This document shows positions 43,880 to 60,636 of a stretch of 64,000 nucleotides of DNA, piece by piece (the first letter of the stretch is position 1; each line of letters starts with the position of its first letter). The DNA is taken from the IMG/VR virus record IMGVR_UViG_3300046001_007123. The stretch is one strand, 5' to 3'. This DNA is from a virus. Both the position numbers and the translations under genes were made by a program. A model generated the notes under the pieces. The model worked only from the letters and a program-made list of their open reading frames with translations. It did no database searches and was not told the origin of the DNA.

Positions 43880-44485
43880 ATGGAAGGATATATCTATTTG
43901 GGTGAATACTATGATGTTCTCGGAAGAGAACTCGACACAACCGACAAGAAGATCGGGAAAACAATCTCTTTAACTCAAAGAGAGTATCAACTTAACAGAA
44001 CAAAATCTCCAATAGGATATAAGATTATCTCTGCGTATATGGTAGACGATATGGATAAGGTGGAAAAACTATTACACGCCATCCTCGATAGTCGAAGATT
44101 GGTTGGGGAGTGGTTTAAAGATGATGAGGACACATTAACAGGTGAGTTCATCAACTTTATGAATATCTATGGGGCTACCACTATGGATATGAAACAACTC
44201 AAAGAAGAACAAATCTCATTAAGTGGTGATGAAAGATTAGTGAAGATCGCCGACTCATTTGGTAAAGATACGATGTTGATCCGAACATACAAAGGAATCG
44301 ACTACGACGTACTATTAGATTCAAAAGGAATATTACACTTCAACGGAGAAACCTTTGACACTCCAAATAAGTTCTACAATAGTGGTTTACTTAAGTTCTT
44401 AACTGGTAAACGAGGTAATAGTGGTACCAATCAGGTAACTCAATTTAAAGTTAAGGAAACGAAGGAATCACTAAGAGAATTATAA
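43880..44485 (+). CDS. T5orf172 (GIY-YIG-like) domain protein
   Basis: GYIYLGEYYD...KKIGKTISLTQREYQLNRTKSPIGYKII...VEKLLHAILDSRRLVGEWF follows the T5orf172 pattern (GxVYI..KIG.T....R...L....P.....E..LH..F...R..GEWF). Confidence 0.65.
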   Translation: MEGYIYLGEYYDVLGRELDTTDKKIGKTISLTQREYQLNRTKSPIGYKIISAYMVDDMDKVEKLLHAILDSRRLVGEWFKDDEDTLTGEFINFMNIYGATTMDMKQLKEEQISLSGDERLVKIADSFGKDTMLIRTYKGIDYDVLLDSKGILHFNGETFDTPNKFYNSGLLKFLTGKRGNSGTNQVTQFKVKETKESLREL

Positions 44486-44504: not shown

Positions 44505-44612
44505 AGTCAGGTGGCGGAATTGGTAACGTACATATAATGAGAGTTCTGCAGGCTCGCCCGAAAAGTAAGTTATATGGTGGTATAAATACAGGTTCGAATC
44601 CTGTCCTGACTA
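44505..44612 (+). ncRNA. tRNA-derived element A (tRNA-Leu-type acceptor/D arm and T arm/acceptor; 57-nt non-tRNA centre)
   Basis: 5' AGTCAGGTGGCGGAATTGGTAACG ... 3' ACAGGTTCGAATCCTGTCCTGACTA. The centre contains a 7-bp CATATAA/TTATATG stem and will not fold as an anticodon arm. Confidence 0.5.
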
Positions 44613-44614
44613 CA

Positions 44615-44650
44615 TAAAAATCCTTCACAATGGTGGGGGATTTTTATTTT
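44615..44650 (+). terminator. rho-independent terminator (ATCCTTCAC-loop-GTGGGGGAT, T-run)
   Basis: Follows element A directly. The next ATG is at 44667. Confidence 0.6.
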
Positions 44651-44666
44651 AGTATATTTATTAGAT

Positions 44667-46695: not shown

Positions 46696-46765
46696 TGATT
46701 CCGATTGCATAACCTATAATTGGTTTTGGAAATAAAAAAATAATGTATTATATTTGAAAAATATT

Positions 46766-46910
46766 AGTCAGGTGGCGGAATGGTAGACGCTAACCAAGTA
46801 AATCCAAAAGACAGCCTTGCTACTGCAATAGGTGTAGGGGATATGGATTTAATAGTATAATGTGCAGAATGATTACTAACGATTTACAGGTTCGAATCCT
46901 GTCCTGACTA
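46766..46910 (+). ncRNA. tRNA-derived element B (95-nt centre)
   Basis: Same 25-nt 5' half and 26-nt 3' half as element A. The centre has AAATCC/GGATTT and TTGC/GCAA stems. Confidence 0.5.
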
Positions 46911-46932: not shown

Positions 46933-47049
46933 ATGGACTTTGATGAAGAAAAAGAATGGGATAGACTGTGGATAAAACATAGAAATGCAATGATTCATAT
47001 GTTAATATGTGGTGTGATACTCGGTTGGTGTATTGGAATTTATTGTTAA
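46933..47049 (+). CDS. 38-aa hydrophobic peptide (not in ORF track)
   Basis: MDFDEEKEWDRLWIKHRNAMIHMLICGVILGWCIGIYC*. Lies between elements B and C. Confidence 0.3.
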   Translation: MDFDEEKEWDRLWIKHRNAMIHMLICGVILGWCIGIYC

Positions 47050-47058
47050 CTAACAAAT

Positions 47059-47095
47059 AGTCAGGTGGTGGAATTGGTAGACTCAGTCCTGACTA
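47059..47095 (+). ncRNA. tRNA-derived element C, collapsed to a 37-nt minihelix
   Basis: AGTCAGGTGGTGGAATTGGTAGAC-TCAG-TCCTGACTAC. The 5' half is joined almost directly to the acceptor 3' strand. Confidence 0.45.
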
Positions 47096-47110: not shown

Positions 47111-47344
47111 ATGGAACAAGAGGAAAAACAAAAATTGATCAATCTAATGTTTGAGATGGTTTTAGCGACAACTAATGACCCTGTTTTTTGTAAAAGACCT
47201 AGAGGTGAGAGAATGGCTTGGGTTGCAAATAATCTAAGAGATATTGGAATTGACACACACCCAATCGGGATGAGTTGGGGTGTAATGGTAAGTGAAGACT
47301 TTAGAGATACCGTTGAAGTCATCAAAGATAATTTAGATAATTAA
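47111..47344 (+). CDS. hypothetical protein
   Basis: 77-aa ORF between elements C and D. Confidence 0.4.
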   Translation: MEQEEKQKLINLMFEMVLATTNDPVFCKRPRGERMAWVANNLRDIGIDTHPIGMSWGVMVSEDFRDTVEVIKDNLDN

Positions 47345-47348
47345 TCAT

Positions 47349-47445
47349 AGTCAGGTGGCGGAATGGTAGACGCTGATATTTGAGACTACAAGAAACCTAG
47401 GAACGGAAGTGGCAGCTCATACAGGTTCGAATCCTGTCCTGACTA
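47349..47445 (+). ncRNA. tRNA-derived element D (47-nt centre)
   Basis: Conserved halves. The centre has a CCUAGG palindrome. Confidence 0.5.
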
Positions 47446-47514
47446 CGAAATCCTGAAAATACATACGTCCGTTTACGGCTATGGAAGTGGTTGACAGCTG
47501 GAAAGACAGCAAAT

Positions 47515-47636
47515 AGTCAGGTGGCGGAAGTGGTGTACGCAGTGGTGTGTTAAATGTGGGAATAGACATAATCCCTAACCCTGAAAGGGGCTAACTGCTT
47601 GTCTCTTAGCTACAGGTTCGATTCCTGTCCTGACTA
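47515..47636 (+). ncRNA. tRNA-derived element E (71-nt centre; T-loop variant TTCGATT)
   Basis: Conserved halves. The centre has a CCCU-GAAA-GGGG GNRA hairpin. Confidence 0.5.
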
Positions 47637-47921: not shown

Positions 47922-48022
47922 AGTCAGGTGGCGGAATTGGTAGACGTATCTCACTCAGGTGTAGATTTGGTGAAACATAAAATGTATCGAATACATTACA
48001 GGTTCGAATCCTGTCCTGACTA
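47922..48022 (+). ncRNA. tRNA-derived element F (50-nt centre with a CTCAGGT Leu-CAG-like loop and an AAUGUAU-CGA-AUACAUU hairpin)
   Basis: Nearest to a real type-II tRNA-Leu. The putative anticodon stem has only 3-4 bp and 15 extra nt. Confidence 0.5.
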
Positions 48023-48422: not shown

Positions 48423-48450
48423 CAATGGGGGGATTTTTTGTTTACGGGTA
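48411..48450 (+). terminator. rho-independent terminator (TCCCTC-loop-GGGGGGA, T6)
   Basis: Overlaps the 3' end of the 48039 gene. Confidence 0.6.
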
Positions 48451-48461
48451 TATTTATTAAT

Positions 48462-48824: not shown

Positions 48825-49276
48825 ACCTACAGGAACACATAAGAAGAGTACTAAAGGAAGAGACGTTAAAGACCAAATTAATTCACAACATCAAGAATGA
48901 TGGTTGGTTTAATGTTTCGCCATATGTAGGTGGTGATGATAATCTTAAAAAAGTTACTGACATACATAACGCGTTAGGTTTTATGAAGTTGTTTTTAGAT
49001 CTAAAAGGAGTTGTAAGCGAACAAGAACCACTAATGAGGTTATATAAAAATGAGAATGGGGAAAACGTATTTGTTATAAGAACTATATGGAATGAAAATA
49101 CGATTTACGTTAATTATGATTTAATTTTTAGACCATTAAAGGTTTTTTTAGAAACGGATACAAATATGAAGACAAGAGATTTTTTAGACAAATGGTTTAA
49201 AAATAAGTACGGTATTATAGTTAATGATTGGGTAAATCATTTCTCAAAGGATGATTATATAGGGATGATTAATTAA
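48821..49276 (+). CDS. family-2 member (MNLQEHIRRVLKEETLK)
   Basis: ATGA junction. Confidence 0.5.
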   Translation: MNLQEHIRRVLKEETLKTKLIHNIKNDGWFNVSPYVGGDDNLKKVTDIHNALGFMKLFLDLKGVVSEQEPLMRLYKNENGENVFVIRTIWNENTIYVNYDLIFRPLKVFLETDTNMKTRDFLDKWFKNKYGIIVNDWVNHFSKDDYIGMIN

Positions 49277-49752
49277 TACTCATCGGAGATCAATCTCTCA
49301 TAGTTTCTAGCAACCCCAACCAAATCATAGTCATCCAAGCATCTCCAAGAGTTAACAAATAAGATACGATTATATCCGATCTCAGACACGTTCTCATAAT
49401 ATTCAAGAGATTCGTCATCAATAATAAGAAACTTCGTGTAACCCTCAGATTTACGTTTAATAACAAACCCAGCACGATCATCGGGATCACCAAAGGTAAG
49501 ACCATTCACAATGATACCTCTACTAATCAAGAAATCCTTAAACTCCTCACCATCATTAGATCCGTTCCAATAAGAGCGACCCCAAGTAGATACAATACAT
49601 ATATGAGCATCAAACATTGTGATGATACTATTAAGGACTTCAACAGATTTAGGGATGAAAGAATGTTTACCATCAGGATCACGGTCCTTTAGTTTAAGGT
49701 AACTAACAAGTACACCATCAATGTCAAGATATATAGTAAACGGTTTTTCCAT
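49273..49752 (-). CDS. HAD-superfamily phosphatase
   Basis: MEKPFTIYLDIDGVL (motif I DxDG), CIVSTW (motif II), K, IIDDE (motif IV). The upstream TTTGTACT-ATGGAAAAA copies the + strand leader. Confidence 0.65.
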   Translation of the reverse strand: MEKPFTIYLDIDGVLVSYLKLKDRDPDGKHSFIPKSVEVLNSIITMFDAHICIVSTWGRSYWNGSNDGEEFKDFLISRGIIVNGLTFGDPDDRAGFVIKRKSEGYTKFLIIDDESLEYYENVSEIGYNRILFVNSWRCLDDYDLVGVARNYERLISDEY

Positions 49753-49788
49753 AGTACAAAGATAATAATAATATATGTATGACACAAT

Positions 49789-50888: not shown

Positions 50889-50967
50889 GAGTATACGATC
50901 AATTCATTCGGTTCATAGTCCTCCGTTATCACTACGGAATTCACCTCATAAATTTATCCTACACTCT
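50886..50967. repeat. 85-bp TIR-bounded element, copy 2 (AAGAGTATA...TACACTCTT)
   Basis: Starts on the stop codon of 50142..50888. The internal CCGT-loop-ACGG hairpin is conserved. Confidence 0.6.
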
Positions 50968-51247
50968 TACCGTTATTATAGGTCCATAAGGTAAAATATA
51001 ATTTACAAATTAATGTATATTTGTAAAAAGTATTTTCAGTTATTAATCCCCCCACTTATAAAAGACCCCCAATGAAAGACAGACATTATGGTATACAATT
51101 TTGTTATACGATGAGGTATTCATTGTGGTGTTCATTTTAAAGGAATGTTCAGTTACACTGAACATAAAGAATTAGTGAACAGATGAAGGAATATATGAAA
51201 GTATATTTTAGTATGTAGATGAAAGGGTTATTAAGTATATCATTCAG

Positions 51248-51264
51248 GTCAGGTTAAACCTGAC
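51248..51264. other. perfect 7-bp hairpin GTCAGGT-TAA-ACCTGAC (acceptor-stem sequence of the tRNA-derived elements with no insert)
   Basis: GGTCAGG...CCTGACTAT mirrors the AGTCAGG...CCTGACTAC ends of elements A to F. Confidence 0.4.
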
Positions 51265-51495
51265 TATAGTGATATAAAAGATACCCACTTATTACCACCA
51301 CTTTACTTGTATGTTTAGTATGTCTATTATTAGGGGGTCAGATGTTGAATGGATCCCTTACGGGTCGTTGAAGAATGATTATAATATGACATTATGTCCT
51401 ACTCTAACGTCCTAAAGGACTGTCCCCGCTCATTGTACTCTAACACTATATTTTTTGCTGGAATTTATATATAGTAAAAAAAATGGTCTTCTTGA

Positions 51496-51517
51496 CCCCT
51501 ACAGAGGGGATTTTTTA
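51496..51517 (+). terminator. orphan rho-independent terminator (CCCCT-ACAG-AGGGG, T6) in a non-coding region
   Basis: No ORF upstream, which suggests a small RNA 3' end. Confidence 0.45.
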
Positions 51518-51683
51518 TGGCTGGTCATACAACCAGCAAGGATTATGGTGGTAGAAAGTGGTAATGAAATGGGGAAGTAATAGATCAAAACCCCGTGAGG
51601 GGATTGTGTGGTGAAGCGAACGTGACTGACATTTTGACAAAATCAAGTTTTTTAACATATATTTATTAACAAAAGTCCCCCTT

Positions 51684-52355: not shown

Positions 52356-53120
52356 CCAATGAACAGTAGAGTCTGTACATAATGAGGGGTAATGTTAAAT
52401 AGAGAATAGTAATCATATGTAAATATAAGTATAATATTTTGATTGACAATATGTTTTTTATAATAGATGATTATATTTATAATAGATCATTCACCCCACG
52501 CAGGGTGTTAGTTGTTCAGTCACTTCGGTACGTAAAGGATAAGATGATCACAACAAACAAACAATAAGATCTGTAATCTCTTACAAACGTGGGGGAATTT
52601 TTTTATGCTTATATATATTATAAGGCAGGTTGGAGTCTACACTCCAAGGGGTGTTGTTCCCCCAGCCCGACATCTCTCTCACATTGTCCATACAAAGATA
52701 GGGAATATAATTGACACCACCAAAGGATCACTAAGTTATTTACTAAATAAAGTTATTAACAATATACCTACCTCCCCTGATCTTGGCATGGGGGTCCTCC
52801 TGTCATATAGACCCCTCCCCCCCTCCGTATCCCCCCCATATATGACATTTTGACACCCTATTAGGGGGGTCAATCCCGCGTGTAACGTATTCGTAAAAAA
52901 TTTTCTGGAAAAAAATTTGGGAAAAATGGAAACTATTTCCCCCATCTATTCTTGGATTTATCTATATGAATACACCACATAAATCCAATCATAATCCGTA
53001 AAGTAAAACTCTTCTAATCTGTAATGTCGACCCCCTCTTCAAATGGATCCCAAATACTGAAAAAAAATTTCTGGAAAAAATTGGGGAAAATGGGAGTATT
53101 TATAATTAAACAATAACATT

Positions 53121-53348
53121 ATGAAAAAAGTAATTAGATTAACTGAAAGGGATCTTGAGAATATCGTTAAACGAACAATCAATGAGTGGGACGAAAATAC
53201 TTTGTATAAGGACATCAAAGGAATAATCAGAAACTCCAATTCGGGACGAGAAGAAGTTATTAGTATTTTGAGAACCATTGCTGACGAAATGGAATCAGGT
53301 GGGAGAATGAGTGACAACATCAGAAAGAGATTTAGAGGTGAAATGTAA
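53121..53348 (+). CDS. family-1 member (MKKVIRLTERDLENIVKRTINEW)
   Basis: 75 aa with its own terminator. Confidence 0.55.
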   Translation: MKKVIRLTERDLENIVKRTINEWDENTLYKDIKGIIRNSNSGREEVISILRTIADEMESGGRMSDNIRKRFRGEM

Positions 53349-53374: not shown

Positions 53375-53408
53375 AACCCCTTCAACCACGGAGGGGTTTT
53401 TTGTTTTC
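53375..53408 (+). terminator. rho-independent terminator (AAACCCCTTC-loop-GGAGGGGTTTTTT)
   Basis: GC stem plus T-run. Confidence 0.7.
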
Positions 53409-53426
53409 CATAGTATTTATTTATAT

Positions 53427-57895: not shown

Positions 57896-57928
57896 AACTA
57901 CCCACCTCATCGGTGGGTTTTTTGTTTT
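57896..57928 (+). terminator. rho-independent terminator (CTACCCACC-TCAT-CGGTGGGT, T6)
   Basis: Part of a 50-bp block that is repeated exactly at 58536..58585. Confidence 0.7.
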
Positions 57929-57946
57929 ATGTAGTATTTATATCAT

Positions 57947-58535: not shown

Positions 58536-58585
58536 TCTCGTCTCTAATGAAACTACCCACCTCATCGGTGGGTTTTTTGTTTTAT
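58536..58585 (+). repeat. exact 50-bp duplicate of 57881..57930 (TCTCGTCTCTAATGAAACTACCCACCTCATCGGTGGGTTTTTTGTTTTAT), including the terminator
   Basis: Copy 1 covers the last 4 codons and stop of gene 57713..57892. Copy 2 is purely intergenic. Confidence 0.7.
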
Positions 58586-58598
58586 CGTATATTTATTA

Positions 58599-59740: not shown

Positions 59741-59768
59741 AAACCTCATAGAATGGGGTTTTTTTATT
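59741..59768 (+). terminator. rho-independent terminator (CCTCAT-AGA-ATGGGG, T8)
   Basis: Stem with T/G wobble plus a long T-run. Confidence 0.6.
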
Positions 59769-59802
59769 TATTGAAATATTTATTAATGTATAAAAATTAC
59801 AT

Positions 59803-60636
59803 ATGAAAAAAAATCTATTTATAATAAGTGAATCCGAAAAAGAAAGAATCTTAGGGATGCACAAAGAAGCTACCAAAAGAAGTTATATTTCTGAACAAGC
59901 GGCACCGGCAGCACCTGCGGCAACTACACCGGCAGCACCTGCGGCAACTACACCGGCAGCACCTGCGGCAACTACACCGGCAGCACCTGCGGCAACTACA
60001 CCTGAGGCAACCGCACCAACTGGAGAAACAACATATAGTTCTTATAGTGATTACGATTACGACTATAAAAAAGAAGGAGATAAATACTTTTTCAAATTAA
60101 AGTTTGAACCTAAGAGTCCTAAAGCGTTGGCATACAAAAATGCTGGTAAATTTTTATCTTGGACCGAACCAACAGGAAAAGCATTAGAGGCAATAAAAAA
60201 ATTACCATTCTCAAGTGAGAAATTAGCAACCAAACCAGCAACGGCAGTTACTGGCCAACTTGCTGCTGACCAATCTAAGACATTGGCGGCATCAGGTGGT
60301 GGTGGTAGTGTACCAAAACTTGCTGACCCAATTGGTGATGCTAAAAAATTGATGCCTAAGATAGATACTTTAGACCCTGTAAAATCAAGTGAGGTTATTG
60401 CTTGGTCAAAATCACCTTCAGGTCAATACGTCCTTAATACACCGGCAGATCAAAGAGAGGCCGCGTTGGATAATTTAGATCGTAGAAAGGGTGATGCAAA
60501 AACGAGAGAACTTAAAAAAGAGATTAGACAAGCTTTAGGTATGTCAGCTGACACTTTAGTTGGTAAGGTAGCATCTTCAGTAAGAGGAGGCGTCCAAGGA
60601 CTTAAACAAGGGTTCCGACAACAAGTAACTAAATAA
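59803..60636 (+). CDS. protein with family-1-like N-terminus (MKKNLFIISESEKERIL) and a (TTPAAPAA)x4 linker
   Basis: 277 aa. The C-terminal half is Lys/Ala-rich. Confidence 0.5.
   Translation: MKKNLFIISESEKERILGMHKEATKRSYISEQAAPAAPAATTPAAPAATTPAAPAATTPAAPAATTPEATAPTGETTYSSYSDYDYDYKKEGDKYFFKLKFEPKSPKALAYKNAGKFLSWTEPTGKALEAIKKLPFSSEKLATKPATAVTGQLAADQSKTLAASGGGGSVPKLADPIGDAKKLMPKIDTLDPVKSSEVIAWSKSPSGQYVLNTPADQREAALDNLDRRKGDAKTRELKKEIRQALGMSADTLVGKVASSVRGGVQGLKQGFRQQVTK
59905..60000 (+). repeat. 4 x 24-nt perfect tandem repeat (CCGGCAGCACCTGCGGCAACTACA) encoding PAAPAATT
   Basis: Four identical copies with no synonymous drift. The duplication is recent or the tract is length-variable. Confidence 0.8.

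What the first reader, a model, noticed from the sequence alone, without database searches (positions are those of the whole stretch)
47059..47095. Collapsed copies: a 37-nt minihelix and a 17-nt perfect hairpin made only of the acceptor-stem sequence
Element C keeps the 24-nt 5' half fused through TCAG to the acceptor 3' strand. At 51248..51264, inside the non-coding region, GTCAGGT-TAA-ACCTGAC is a perfect hairpin of the same AGTCAGG/CCTGACT stem, with flanks GGTCAGG...CCTGACTAT. This series runs from full elements through a minihelix to a bare stem. It suggests the conserved acceptor stem is the functional core, as a protein or ribozyme recognition hairpin or a recombination core site, and that centres are gained and lost by deletion or insertion between the two half-sites.
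Basis: seen in the sequence. Interest (0 to 1): 0.6.

Follow-up and report, generated by a model that had tools for sequence, protein, structure and literature searches.

The report
Collapsed copy of swappable phage tRNA-like gene
The 37-base element is a gutted copy of an apparently undescribed phage family of tRNA-shaped genes, found in at least 119 uncultured phage contigs, whose identical ends stay fixed while the middle is swapped, lost or deleted; the second hairpin is a separate conserved structure.

Summary
Both sequences are exactly as described. E3 (47059-47095) is the sixth copy of a tRNA-Leu-derived, non-decoding tRNA-like gene. The other five are E1 44505-44612, E2 46766-46910, E4 47349-47445, E5 47515-47636 and E6 47922-48022.

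The 24-base 3' end of this family occurs exactly in at least 119 uncultured phage contigs. It was absent from cultured phages and from bacterial isolate genomes.

Interiors are hypervariable: 183 distinct elements fall into 154 interior clusters. They are exchanged as modules. Of 57 orthologous pairs, 25 have unrelated interiors. Twenty pairs share an interior but sit in unrelated flanks.

At E3's own site, one relative (L362) has a full 115-nt element and two relatives have none. E3 is therefore an internally deleted copy. It has no T arm, so it is not a true acceptor-TΨC minihelix. No other copy of it was found. Other phages carry independent collapsed copies with microhomology at their junctions.

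The hairpin at 51248 is not part of this series. It is the core of a 41-nt extended stem-loop in a conserved 795-nt non-coding region. Related phages keep or lose it independently of the tRNA-like genes. The 8-10 bases it shares with the elements' ends may be coincidence.

The function of the family is inferred, not shown.

The parts
47059..47095 (+). E3, the collapsed copy. It has the acceptor 5' strand plus D-arm 5' part (24 nt), then TCAG, then the acceptor 3' strand plus A73. There is no T arm and no D-stem 3' strand.
   Evidence: The orthologous site in L362 holds a full 115-nt element, while L361 and L363 hold none.
44505..44612 (+). E1, a full tRNA-like element of 108 nt. It follows the T5orf172-like ORF and is followed by a terminator.
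   Evidence: Rfam tRNA model 43.6 bits, with the anticodon arm not aligned. Its homologue in L080 shows a compensatory change, CATATAA/TTATATG versus CATACAA/TTGTATG.
46766..46910 (+). E2, a full tRNA-like element of 145 nt with a 95-nt interior. It is the first gene of the E2-E6 transcription unit.
   Evidence: It falls below the Rfam tRNA threshold.
47349..47445 (+). E4, a full tRNA-like element of 97 nt.
   Evidence: Rfam tRNA 38.6 bits. The same downstream trailer follows four unrelated interiors, in the window, L087, L364 and L365.
47515..47636 (+). E5, a full tRNA-like element of 122 nt.
   Evidence: Rfam tRNA 35.1 bits.
47922..48022 (+). E6, a full tRNA-like element of 101 nt. It keeps a Leu(CAG)-like loop CTCAGGT on a decayed stem.
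   Evidence: Rfam tRNA 40.1 bits, with all five anticodon-stem pairs flagged non-canonical.
46725..46756 (+). Promoter-like site TTTG-N20-TATATTTG, ending 9 nt before A1 of E2. It is of the Bacteroidota -33/-7 type.
   Evidence: Read from the sequence. A sigma-70-like match overlaps it at 46726-46754. The consensus itself is from established knowledge.
46933..47049 (+). Small ORF of 38 aa between E2 and E3.
   Evidence: no family match.
47111..47344 (+). Small ORF of 77 aa that starts 15 nt after E3. Its orthologues define E3's site in other phages.
47446..47514 (+). Conserved 69-nt trailer and leader between E4 and E5. It ends in a hairpin, GCTG-GAAAGA-CAGC, at 47497-47510.
   Evidence: It is conserved in L087, L364 and L365 while the flanking elements differ. 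The hairpin stem covaries: GCTG/CAGC, CTCG/CGAG, CCTCG/CGAGG, GCTTG/CAAGC, GATG/CATC.
51236..51276 (.). Extended stem-loop TATATCATT-CA-GGTCAGGT-TAA-ACCTGACT-AT-AGTGATATA.
   Evidence: -20 kcal/mol, z = -6.0. Homologues with the same stem and varying loops are in L180, L185, L202, L206, L234, L183 and L168. L274 has a G.U pair. The hairpin is lost in L239, L240 and L277.
50889..51683 (+). A 795-nt non-coding region that holds the stem-loop. It has conserved blocks, a TATATTTG box near 51016 and a terminator at 51496-51509.
43880..44485 (+). T5orf172/MUG113-domain ORF immediately upstream of E1. This domain is often associated with homing-endonuclease-like phage genes (my reading, not a tool result).
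   Evidence: Pfam PF13455 at 2.3e-10 and PF10544 at 3.9e-8. Relatives L239 and L240 have the gene, but an 85-aa ORF in place of E1.

Best explanation
E3 is an internally deleted, probably dead copy of a member of a large phage gene family. This family appears to be undescribed.

The family consists of non-decoding tRNA-like genes derived from a type II (tRNA-Leu-like) tRNA. Each has an invariant 7-bp acceptor stem (AGTCAGG/CCTGACT), A73 then C74, a Leu-type D arm and a canonical T arm. In place of the anticodon and variable arms there is a hypervariable interior of about 20-150 nt.

In the window, E2 to E6 are co-transcribed with small ORFs from one promoter.

Inferred steps:
- The RNAs fold into a tRNA-like top half and are cut out by the host tRNA-processing enzymes (RNase P at U-1/A1, then 3' trimming and CCA addition).
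- This would release stable small RNAs and also separate the flanking mRNAs and spacer RNAs.
- The identical short ends act as portable homology, so whole elements or their interiors are exchanged between copies and between co-infecting phages.
- Slippage inside an element gives collapsed copies such as E3.

The 51248 hairpin is a different conserved structure. It shares 8-10 bases with the element ends and is not a member of the series.
For: Shown: tRNA-like but not decoding.
- ARAGORN in standard mode finds no tRNA in 64 kb.
- The Rfam tRNA model matches the acceptor, D and T parts of four elements at 35-44 bits, with the anticodon arm unaligned. True tRNAs in related loci score 55-75 bits.

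Shown: RNA-level constraint.
- The D stem covaries: GCG/CGC 82 times, GTG/CAC 9, GCA/TGC 3, GCT/AGC 2.
- Single acceptor changes are G.U in 10 of 17 cases, and most of the mismatches sit at or next to the ends of the helix.
- Interior hairpins show compensatory changes.
- Position -1 is T in 81% of elements and position 74 is C in 97%.

Shown: spread.
- In genome collections it occurs only in 18 MAG contigs, many assigned to Bacteroidota.
- No cultured phage has it.

Shown: module exchange.
- 183 distinct elements fall into 154 interior clusters.
- 25 of 57 orthologous pairs have unrelated interiors, and one site has at least 6 alleles.
- L157 and the L143 group have 97-100% identical flanks around two different interiors.
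- 20 pairs share an interior in unrelated flanks, with homology starting at -2/-1 and ending at C74.
- The trailer downstream of E4 follows four different interiors.

Shown: E3's origin.
- Its site has three states: full, collapsed and empty.

Shown: collapse recurs.
- L138 and L160 (twice) are joined at GAAT, which is shared by the D loop and the T loop.
- The L143 group is joined at GT.

Shown: one operon.
- No terminator lies between 46.7 and 48.4 kb.
Against: - No transcript, processing or aminoacylation data exist.
- Host RNase P and 3' processing do not need a fixed acceptor sequence, so they do not explain why AGTCAGG/CCTGACT is invariant.
- Seven to 25 bases of homology is short for ordinary homologous recombination. 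No recombinase or other protein family is co-located in more than 15 of 137 loci.
- Elements were collected with an exact 3' 24-mer, so the invariance of the T arm and the 3' strand is partly built in. Covarying acceptor variants do exist: AGTTGTG/CACAACT, AGCCAAG/CTTGGCT and GGTCAGG/CCTGACC.
- Collapsed copies keep perfect stems, which could mean they are still used.
- The data are metagenome assemblies, although the repeats are shorter than typical assembly k-mers and identical loci recur in five samples.
Confidence: 0.55

Rival explanations
1. The acceptor-stem hairpin is itself the functional unit. A phage or host protein, or a ribozyme, would recognise the AGUCAGG/CCUGACU helix, or the inverted DNA half-sites. 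It would use them as a site-specific recombination or cleavage site. On this view E3, the other mini copies and the 51248 hairpin are minimal working sites.
For: - The acceptor strands are the only invariant part. Even the T arm and D arm are replaced (L363 versus L361; L157 versus L143).
- Module boundaries fall exactly at the element ends.
- At least four independent collapsed forms keep a perfect stem, and L160 has two identical copies.
- The 51248 stem is invariant while its loop varies across several phages.
- Read on the minus strand, the hairpin is ATAGTCAGGT, identical to 10 nt at the 5' junction of E3, E4, E5 and E6.
Against: - No recombinase or nuclease family travels with the elements.
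- No target-site duplication is seen.
- E3's sequence is unique, and its site is empty in L361 and L363.
- Fetched stretches that carry the hairpin hold no elements.
- Hairpin homologues decay in L239, L240 and L277.
- G.U variants in the acceptor and in L274 fit an RNA helix better than a DNA protein site.
Confidence: 0.22
2. The elements are only punctuation. They would be tRNA-shaped processing signals that let RNase P and RNase Z cut a polycistronic transcript into small mRNAs and spacer RNAs. Their interiors would have no function of their own and would drift or be replaced freely. E3 would be a signal that has died.
For: - The elements alternate with small ORFs in one operon.
- ORF starts peak 12-30 nt after the element in 45 of 159 cases.
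- The E4-E5 spacer is better conserved than the elements on either side of it.
- Interiors share no common motif and match no known RNA family.
Against: - Interior hairpins keep pairing through compensatory changes, and their loops stay conserved. An example is L010 versus L042: three compensated pairs around an unchanged GCTGGGTAA loop.
- The same interior is kept at 80-100% identity in unrelated contexts.
- Punctuation does not require an invariant acceptor sequence.
- The ORF after E3 works without any element in L361 and L363.
Confidence: 0.3
3. The elements are decoys or sponges for host defences that attack tRNAs. The constant top half would attract a tRNA-targeting nuclease. The diversified bottom half would resist cleavage or trap the enzyme.
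For: - Septu and retron-Eco7 cleave the variable loop of a type II tRNA (tRNA-Tyr), and phage tRNAs with altered variable loops counter them (PMC13096335, read).
- The elements derive from a type II tRNA, and it is exactly the anticodon and variable region that diversifies.
- Extreme allelic diversity at one site is typical of arms-race loci.
- They lie in tRNA regions next to homing-endonuclease-like genes.
Against: - The support is entirely by analogy.
- No defence system or target is identified.
- The hosts are unknown uncultured bacteria.
- The invariance of the acceptor sequence is not explained.
Confidence: 0.12
4. For the 51248 hairpin only: its resemblance to the acceptor stem is a coincidence.
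For: - One extra CCTGACTA in 128 kb of AT-rich sequence is about what chance gives (roughly 1.2 expected; my arithmetic on the counts).
- The hairpin has its own conserved flanks and genomic context.
- In the viral collection, the count of GTCAGGT-N3-ACCTGACTA hits is not above a uniform-composition expectation (my estimate).
Against: - Of the few G+C-containing perfect 7-bp hairpins in the window, one carries exactly this stem plus the flanking T and TA. I estimate the chance at 0.001-0.02.
- Both motifs live in AT-rich phages of similar composition (GC 0.28-0.34 for the hairpin-bearing stretches).
- In L168 the hairpin lies inside a tRNA array.
Confidence: 0.45

Closest known systems
Canonical bacterial and phage tRNA-Leu (a type II tRNA)
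   Same: 7-bp acceptor stem. A73. A D arm GGCGGAAT(T)GGTAGACGC that is identical to the bacterial tRNA-Leu type. A T arm with a TTCGAAT loop. U at -1 and C at 74, as in the true tRNA genes of the same contigs.
   Different: There is no 5-bp/7-nt anticodon stem-loop. Interiors range from about 20 to 150 nt and are unrelated to each other. The acceptor sequence is invariant across divergent phages, whereas true tRNA-Leu genes of the same contigs differ freely.
PeSL cassettes of T4-type phages (promoter-early stem-loops; Arbiol et al. 2010, PMC2839356; Comeau et al. 2014, PMC4122927)
   Same: Short conserved repeated motifs that flank small ORFans in plastic genome regions. Recombination between copies causes insertion, deletion and replacement between close relatives (here).
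   Different: PeSLs are a promoter plus a terminator. The repeats here are the two ends of a tRNA-shaped RNA gene, and the exchanged piece is often the inside of that gene.
Engineered tRNA scaffolds for expressing RNAs (Ponchon and Dardel 2007) and tRNA-linked viral small RNAs such as the MHV68 TMERs. Both are cited from memory.
   Same: A tRNA frame, recognised by tRNA-processing enzymes, that carries or releases an unrelated RNA. In the scaffold design the anticodon arm is replaced by the cargo, which is the same topology as here.
   Different: The first is artificial and the second is eukaryotic, with the cargo placed downstream of the tRNA. No natural bacteriophage family of this design turned up in the six literature searches I ran.
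Acceptor-TΨC minihelix substrates of RNase P, the CCA-adding enzyme and some aminoacyl-tRNA synthetases (established knowledge)
   Same: E3 and the other collapsed copies keep the 7-bp acceptor stem and A73.
   Different: A minihelix is the 12-bp coaxial acceptor plus T stem, closed by the T loop. E3 has no T stem or T loop. The L138/L160 forms keep only half of the T stem.
MITEs and other elements bounded by terminal inverted repeats
   Same: A discrete module bounded by an 8-bp inverted repeat (TAGTCAGG...CCTGACTA). It occurs in many copies with varying content and in varied contexts.
   Different: No target-site duplication and no transposase are seen. The inverted repeat is a tRNA acceptor stem, and the body keeps tRNA D and T arms.

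Membership tests
Decoding tRNA | 7-bp acceptor stem, D arm with G18 G19, and T arm with a T-psi-C loop | tested here: met
   Met by E1, E2, E4, E5 and E6. Not met by E3, which lacks the T arm and the 3' strand of the D stem.
Decoding tRNA | Anticodon arm: a 5-bp stem and a 7-nt loop with U33 | tested here: not met
   ARAGORN standard mode calls nothing. With introns allowed it gives arbitrary anticodons. Rfam alignments skip the arm or flag it as non-canonical.
Decoding tRNA | Score at or above the Rfam RF00005 gathering score | tested here: inconclusive
   E1, E4, E5 and E6 score 35-44 bits against a gathering score of 29. E2 and E3 do not match. True tRNAs in related loci score 55-75 bits.
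Acceptor-TΨC minihelix | 12-bp stacked acceptor plus T stem closed by the T loop | tested here: not met
   E3 is a 7-bp stem plus a 22-nt loop made of D-arm remnants.
Acceptor-TΨC minihelix | Cleavage by RNase P, or CCA addition | not testable with these tools
   This needs in vitro assays.
tmRNA | tRNA-like domain plus a tag reading frame and pseudoknots | tested here: not met
   ARAGORN and Rfam find no tmRNA in the window.
tRNA with intron (group I or bulge-helix-bulge) | A canonical tRNA remains after removal of a defined intron | tested here: not met
   No consistent anticodon arm or intron position exists. No group I intron or ribozyme family matches.
PeSL-type shuffling cassette | Repeated short conserved motif at the borders of indels and replacements between close relatives | tested here: met
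PeSL-type shuffling cassette | The motif is a strong promoter plus a terminator stem-loop | tested here: not met
   The motif is the two ends of a tRNA-like gene. Only E2 has a promoter, and only E1 is followed by a terminator.
MITE or transposon | Target-site duplication and a cognate transposase | tested here: not met
   The flanks show only a general A-rich bias. No transposase is among the co-located protein families.
CRISPR array | Regularly spaced direct repeats with short spacers | tested here: not met
   The conserved parts are inverted ends. Spacing is irregular, and ORFs lie between the units.
Intrinsic terminator (for the 51248 hairpin) | G+C-rich stem followed by a run of T | tested here: not met
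   The stem is followed by ATAGTGATATAAAAG. The terminator scan does not list it.

The most novel reading that the evidence does not exclude
Phages of uncultured, probably Bacteroidota, hosts carry a natural 'tRNA-scaffold display' system. An invariant tRNA top half ensures processing and stability. Its fixed ends act as universal recombination handles, so a community-wide library of small RNA modules, possibly anti-defence decoys or aptamers, is swapped in and out of fixed genomic slots. This would be an RNA-gene analogue of integron cassettes. Collapsed copies such as E3 would be emptied slots.
Probability: 0.2. Interest if true: 0.85.

Novelty: new variant of a known kind. Interest (0 to 1): 0.62.

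Why it matters
- If the family is real RNA, it is a widespread class of phage small RNAs that standard tRNA finders miss or mislabel. ARAGORN gives no calls in standard mode and random 'intron' tRNAs in intron mode.
- It offers a clear case in which a very short conserved sequence marks the borders of module exchange between phage genomes. One genomic slot carries at least six alleles.
- It would be a natural precedent for the tRNA-scaffold designs used in RNA engineering.
- For annotation, the practical point is that 37-nt and 26-30-nt acceptor hairpins in such phages are remnants of these genes. They are not independent motifs.

Tried and rejected
- Standard tRNA and tmRNA detection: nothing found.
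- Intron-tolerant ARAGORN: anticodons arbitrary, so rejected as evidence of real tRNAs.
- Rfam at gathering and E-value thresholds on the window and 19 loci: only the tRNA model and one phage tmRNA matched. No ribozyme or riboswitch lies in the interiors.
- Cultured phage genomes: no match to the 8-kb region. A composite frame query hit only ordinary tRNA D or T arms.
- Host tRNA mimicry: the 24-mer is in no isolate genome, only in 18 MAG contigs.
- Antisense or guide idea: interiors have no significant complementarity within the 64 kb. The best match is 13 nt, on the same strand.
- Shared interior motif: none.
- Dedicated partner protein: no family is present in more than 15 of 137 loci. The neighbouring small ORFs have no family match.
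- Transposon model: no target-site duplication.
- E3 elsewhere: absent from the viral and metagenome collections.
- Unbiased collection of hairpin-region homologues with a 14-mer: mostly chance hits. Only L274 and L277 were informative.
- Literature: six searches, including one on the exact sequences, found no description of the family.

Full report
**1. The observation**

Window 47059-47095 reads AGTCAGGTGGTGGAATTGGTAGAC-TCAG-TCCTGACTA. Window 51248-51264 reads GTCAGGT-TAA-ACCTGAC.

The window is AT-rich (33% G+C) and phage-like, and most of its ORFs match no known family.

AGTCAGG...CCTGACT pairs within 160 nt occur six times. All are on the + strand between 44.5 and 48.0 kb, with spacers of 93, 130, 22, 82, 107 and 86 nt. 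A Markov model expects 0.003. The elements are:
- E1 44505-44612
- E2 46766-46910
- E3 47059-47095
- E4 47349-47445
- E5 47515-47636
- E6 47922-48022

**2. What the full elements are**

Each full element has these parts, in order:
- a 7-bp acceptor stem;
- U8;
- a D arm GGCGGAAT(T)GGTAGACGC of the bacterial tRNA-Leu type;
- a variable interior of 47-95 nt;
- a T arm ACAGG-TTCGAAT-CCTGT;
- the 3' acceptor strand, then A73 and C74.

ARAGORN finds no tRNA in the window. The Rfam tRNA model matches four elements at 35-44 bits, but only over the acceptor, D and T parts. So they are tRNA-shaped but have no anticodon arm. E6 keeps a Leu(CAG)-like loop, CTCAGGT, on a decayed stem.

E2 is preceded by TTTG-N20-TATATTTG, which fits the Bacteroidota -33/-7 promoter type. 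No terminator lies between E2 and the ORF after E6. E2 to E6 and four small ORFs therefore form one transcription unit.

**3. The family is large and appears to be undescribed**

- The 24-mer CAGGTTCGAATCCTGTCCTGACTA occurs exactly in at least 119 viral metagenome contigs, often several times per contig.
- Total element lengths run from 54 to 182 nt.
- Cultured phage genomes lack it.
- Among one genome per species of 185,579 species, it is present only in 18 MAG contigs, many assigned to freshwater Bacteroidota. These are probably mis-binned phage.
- Six literature searches, including one on the sequences themselves, found nothing.

**4. Evidence that the family acts as RNA**

- The D stem covaries: GCG/CGC 82 times, GTG/CAC 9, GCA/TGC 3, GCT/AGC 2.
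- Among elements located by D arm and T loop only, 107 have the consensus acceptor. Ten have one change that gives a G.U pair. Seven have a mismatch, mostly at or next to the ends of the helix. One has a doubly compensated pair.
- Acceptor variants that covary fully also exist: AGTTGTG/CACAACT and AGCCAAG/CTTGGCT.
- Position -1 is T in 81% of elements, which is the base that bacterial RNase P prefers. Position 74 is C in 97%, as in the true tRNA genes of the same contigs.
- Interior hairpins keep their pairing through compensatory changes. E1 and L080 have CATATAA/TTATATG versus CATACAA/TTGTATG. L010 and L042 differ by three compensated pairs around a conserved loop.

**5. Interiors are hypervariable and move as modules**

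The 183 distinct elements fall into 154 interior clusters. They share no common motif, and only the tRNA model matches them.

Same flanks, different interior:
- Of 57 pairs from different loci whose 80-nt flanks on both sides are at least 80% identical, 25 have unrelated interiors.
- One slot (L022, L051, L073, L092, L101, L104, L110) has at least six alleles.
- L157 and the L143 group have 97-100% identical flanks. Yet both of their full elements differ completely, including the D arm and T loop. A collapsed 26-nt copy between those elements is unchanged.

Same interior, different flanks:
- Twenty pairs share an interior at 80% identity or more in unrelated flanks.
- Homology starts at -2/-1 and ends at C74. 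L012 and L015 share an identical 93 nt.

The window's own elements take part:
- The 69-nt trailer after E4 is conserved in L087, L364 and L365 behind three other interiors.
- L361 and L363 share a leader but have unrelated elements with different T arms.

True tRNA-Leu genes of these contigs have diverged normally. The fixed ends are therefore unusual.

**6. E3**

The ORF that starts 15 nt after E3 has orthologues in three other contigs.
- In L362, a full 115-nt element sits at E3's place. It has the same 5' 22 nt and the same 3' strand, and is followed by the same kind of A-rich leader and ATG.
- In L361 and L363 there is no element at that place.

E3 is therefore the collapsed state of a slot that can be full or empty.

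Its 5' 24 nt are the GTG-type D-arm variant of the family, but its partner strand has been lost. Its 3' flank is identical for 22 nt to that of E2. TCAG may be a remnant of an E6-like CTCAGGT loop or of the T-stem strand (A/T)CAGG. This point is inference.

E3's exact sequence occurs nowhere else. Its fold is no better than shuffles (z = -0.95).

Other phages carry independent collapsed copies:
- AGTCAGGTGGCGGAAT|CCTGTCCTGACTA, in L138 and twice in L160, in unrelated flanks. The junction is at GAAT, which the D loop and T loop share.
- A variant of that form in L142.
- The L146/L148 form.
- AGTCAGGTGGCAATTGG|TCCTGACTA in the L143 group, with GT at the junction.

Recurrent slippage at microhomology explains these copies. 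Whether the remnants retain any function is unknown.

**7. The 51248 hairpin**

The hairpin is the core of a 41-nt extended stem-loop at 51236-51276, with -20 kcal/mol and z = -6.0. It lies in a 795-nt non-coding region with a promoter-like box and a terminator.

- The same stem, with varying loops (TAA, TTA, TTC, TCA), recurs with conserved flanks (ATATC...GATAT, then TGATAYAAAACATA). It sits in the homologous non-coding region of L180, L185, L202, L206, L234 and L183. It also appears in other contexts, including a tRNA array in L168.
- L274 has a G.U pair in the stem. L277, L239 and L240 have lost the hairpin while keeping neighbouring blocks.
- None of these stretches contains a tRNA-like element of this family; L168 holds true tRNA genes only.
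- L239 and L240, which are relatives of the window, lack both the elements and an intact hairpin. That is only two genomes.

The hairpin has no D-arm or T-arm remnant. It is therefore not the end of a decay series.

The shared bases could reflect a common recogniser or could be chance. They are CCTGACTA on one strand and ATAGTCAGGT on the other. I estimate the chance at roughly 0.001-0.02 for this window. This estimate is post hoc.

**8. Mechanism**

Shown:
- tRNA-like architecture without an anticodon arm;
- operon context;
- structural covariation;
- modular exchange bounded by the element ends;
- collapse by internal deletion.

Inferred:
- processing by RNase P and the 3' maturation enzymes;
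- stability of the excised RNAs;
- recombination using the fixed ends as homology;
- any role of the interiors.

The invariance of the acceptor sequence is not explained by processing alone. It could come from repeated gene conversion and horizontal spread, or from an unknown sequence-specific partner.

The rivals I kept are:
- a functional acceptor hairpin or recombination site;
- pure transcript punctuation;

**9. Comparison with known systems, and verdict**

The closest known systems are:
- tRNA-Leu itself (same frame, but no decoding arm here);
- the PeSL cassettes of T4-type phages (same role in modular shuffling, different nature; PMC2839356);
- engineered tRNA scaffolds (same topology, cited from memory).

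Verdict:
- It is wrong about the hairpin and about the 'minihelix'.
- The finding leads to a widespread and apparently undescribed family, which is the interesting part.

Noticed in passing
window 47446-47514 (hairpin at 47497-47510): The 69-nt spacer between E4 and E5 is better conserved than the elements around it. It is present in L087, L364 and L365. It ends in a hairpin with a fixed GAAAGA loop and a covarying stem: GCTG/CAGC, CTCG/CGAG, CCTCG/CGAGG (L009), GCTTG/CAAGC (L056) and GATG/CATC (L363). It may be a small RNA released from between two tRNA-like elements, comparable to the 3'ETS-leuZ sponge of E. coli (from memory).
   Followed up: partly
window 50889-51683: A 795-nt non-coding region whose blocks are conserved in L180, L185, L202, L206, L234, L183, L239 and L240. 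It has a TATATTTG promoter-like box near 51016 and an intrinsic terminator at 51496-51509. It is a candidate structured RNA of about 480 nt, or a regulatory or origin region. No Rfam family matches it.
   Followed up: partly
window 52895-52924, 53061-53090 and 53091-53174: Repeated intergenic motifs (AAAAAATTTCTGGAAAAAA-TTGGGGAAAA) and an ORF start region. They match several places each in the related loci L202, L206 and L234. They may be repeated regulatory cassettes of an early region.
   Followed up: no
window 44632-44663, 48425-48459, 53388-53422, 57909-57943, 58564-58598, 59751-59785: A recurring terminator-plus-promoter cassette: a GGGG hairpin, a T run, then TATATTTAT(TA). It lies between small genes. 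In layout it resembles the PeSL cassettes of T4-type phages.
   Followed up: no
L022, L049, L060, L062, L095, L116 (viral contigs): Some family members carry an extra hairpin inserted in the D loop, between GGAAT and GGTAGAC. An example is GGGGTGTCCTC. The D loop is therefore a second site that tolerates insertions.
   Followed up: no
interiors of 9 of 181 elements (for example L029, L036, L077, L083): These interiors contain a second T-arm-like hairpin (a stem plus a TTCGANTC loop). Shuffles give 0.3 on average. They may be remnants of nested or fused tRNA-like genes, or functional T-loop modules.
   Followed up: partly
window 49273-49785 (- strand): An ORF with a HAD domain of the 'Swiss Army Knife' RNA-repair proteins (PF18143, E = 1.1e-9). 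It lies 1.3 kb from the tRNA-like cluster.
   Followed up: no
window 59879-60031: A 24-nt tandem repeat (CACCGGCAGCACCTGCGGCAACTA, about 4-5 copies) inside ORF 59803-60636. It should encode a repeat rich in Ala, Pro and Thr.
   Followed up: no
L048 4975-5349: One of the phage contigs that carries the family also encodes a tmRNA (Rfam RF00023, 53.3 bits), next to a large tRNA array.
   Followed up: no
L362 2800-2861: Directly upstream of the full element at E3's orthologous site lies a broken tRNA-like piece, GGTCAGGG...CGGTTCGAGTCCG. Its expected 3' acceptor strand is replaced by the 5' strand of the next element. This looks like a fusion of two elements.
   Followed up: no
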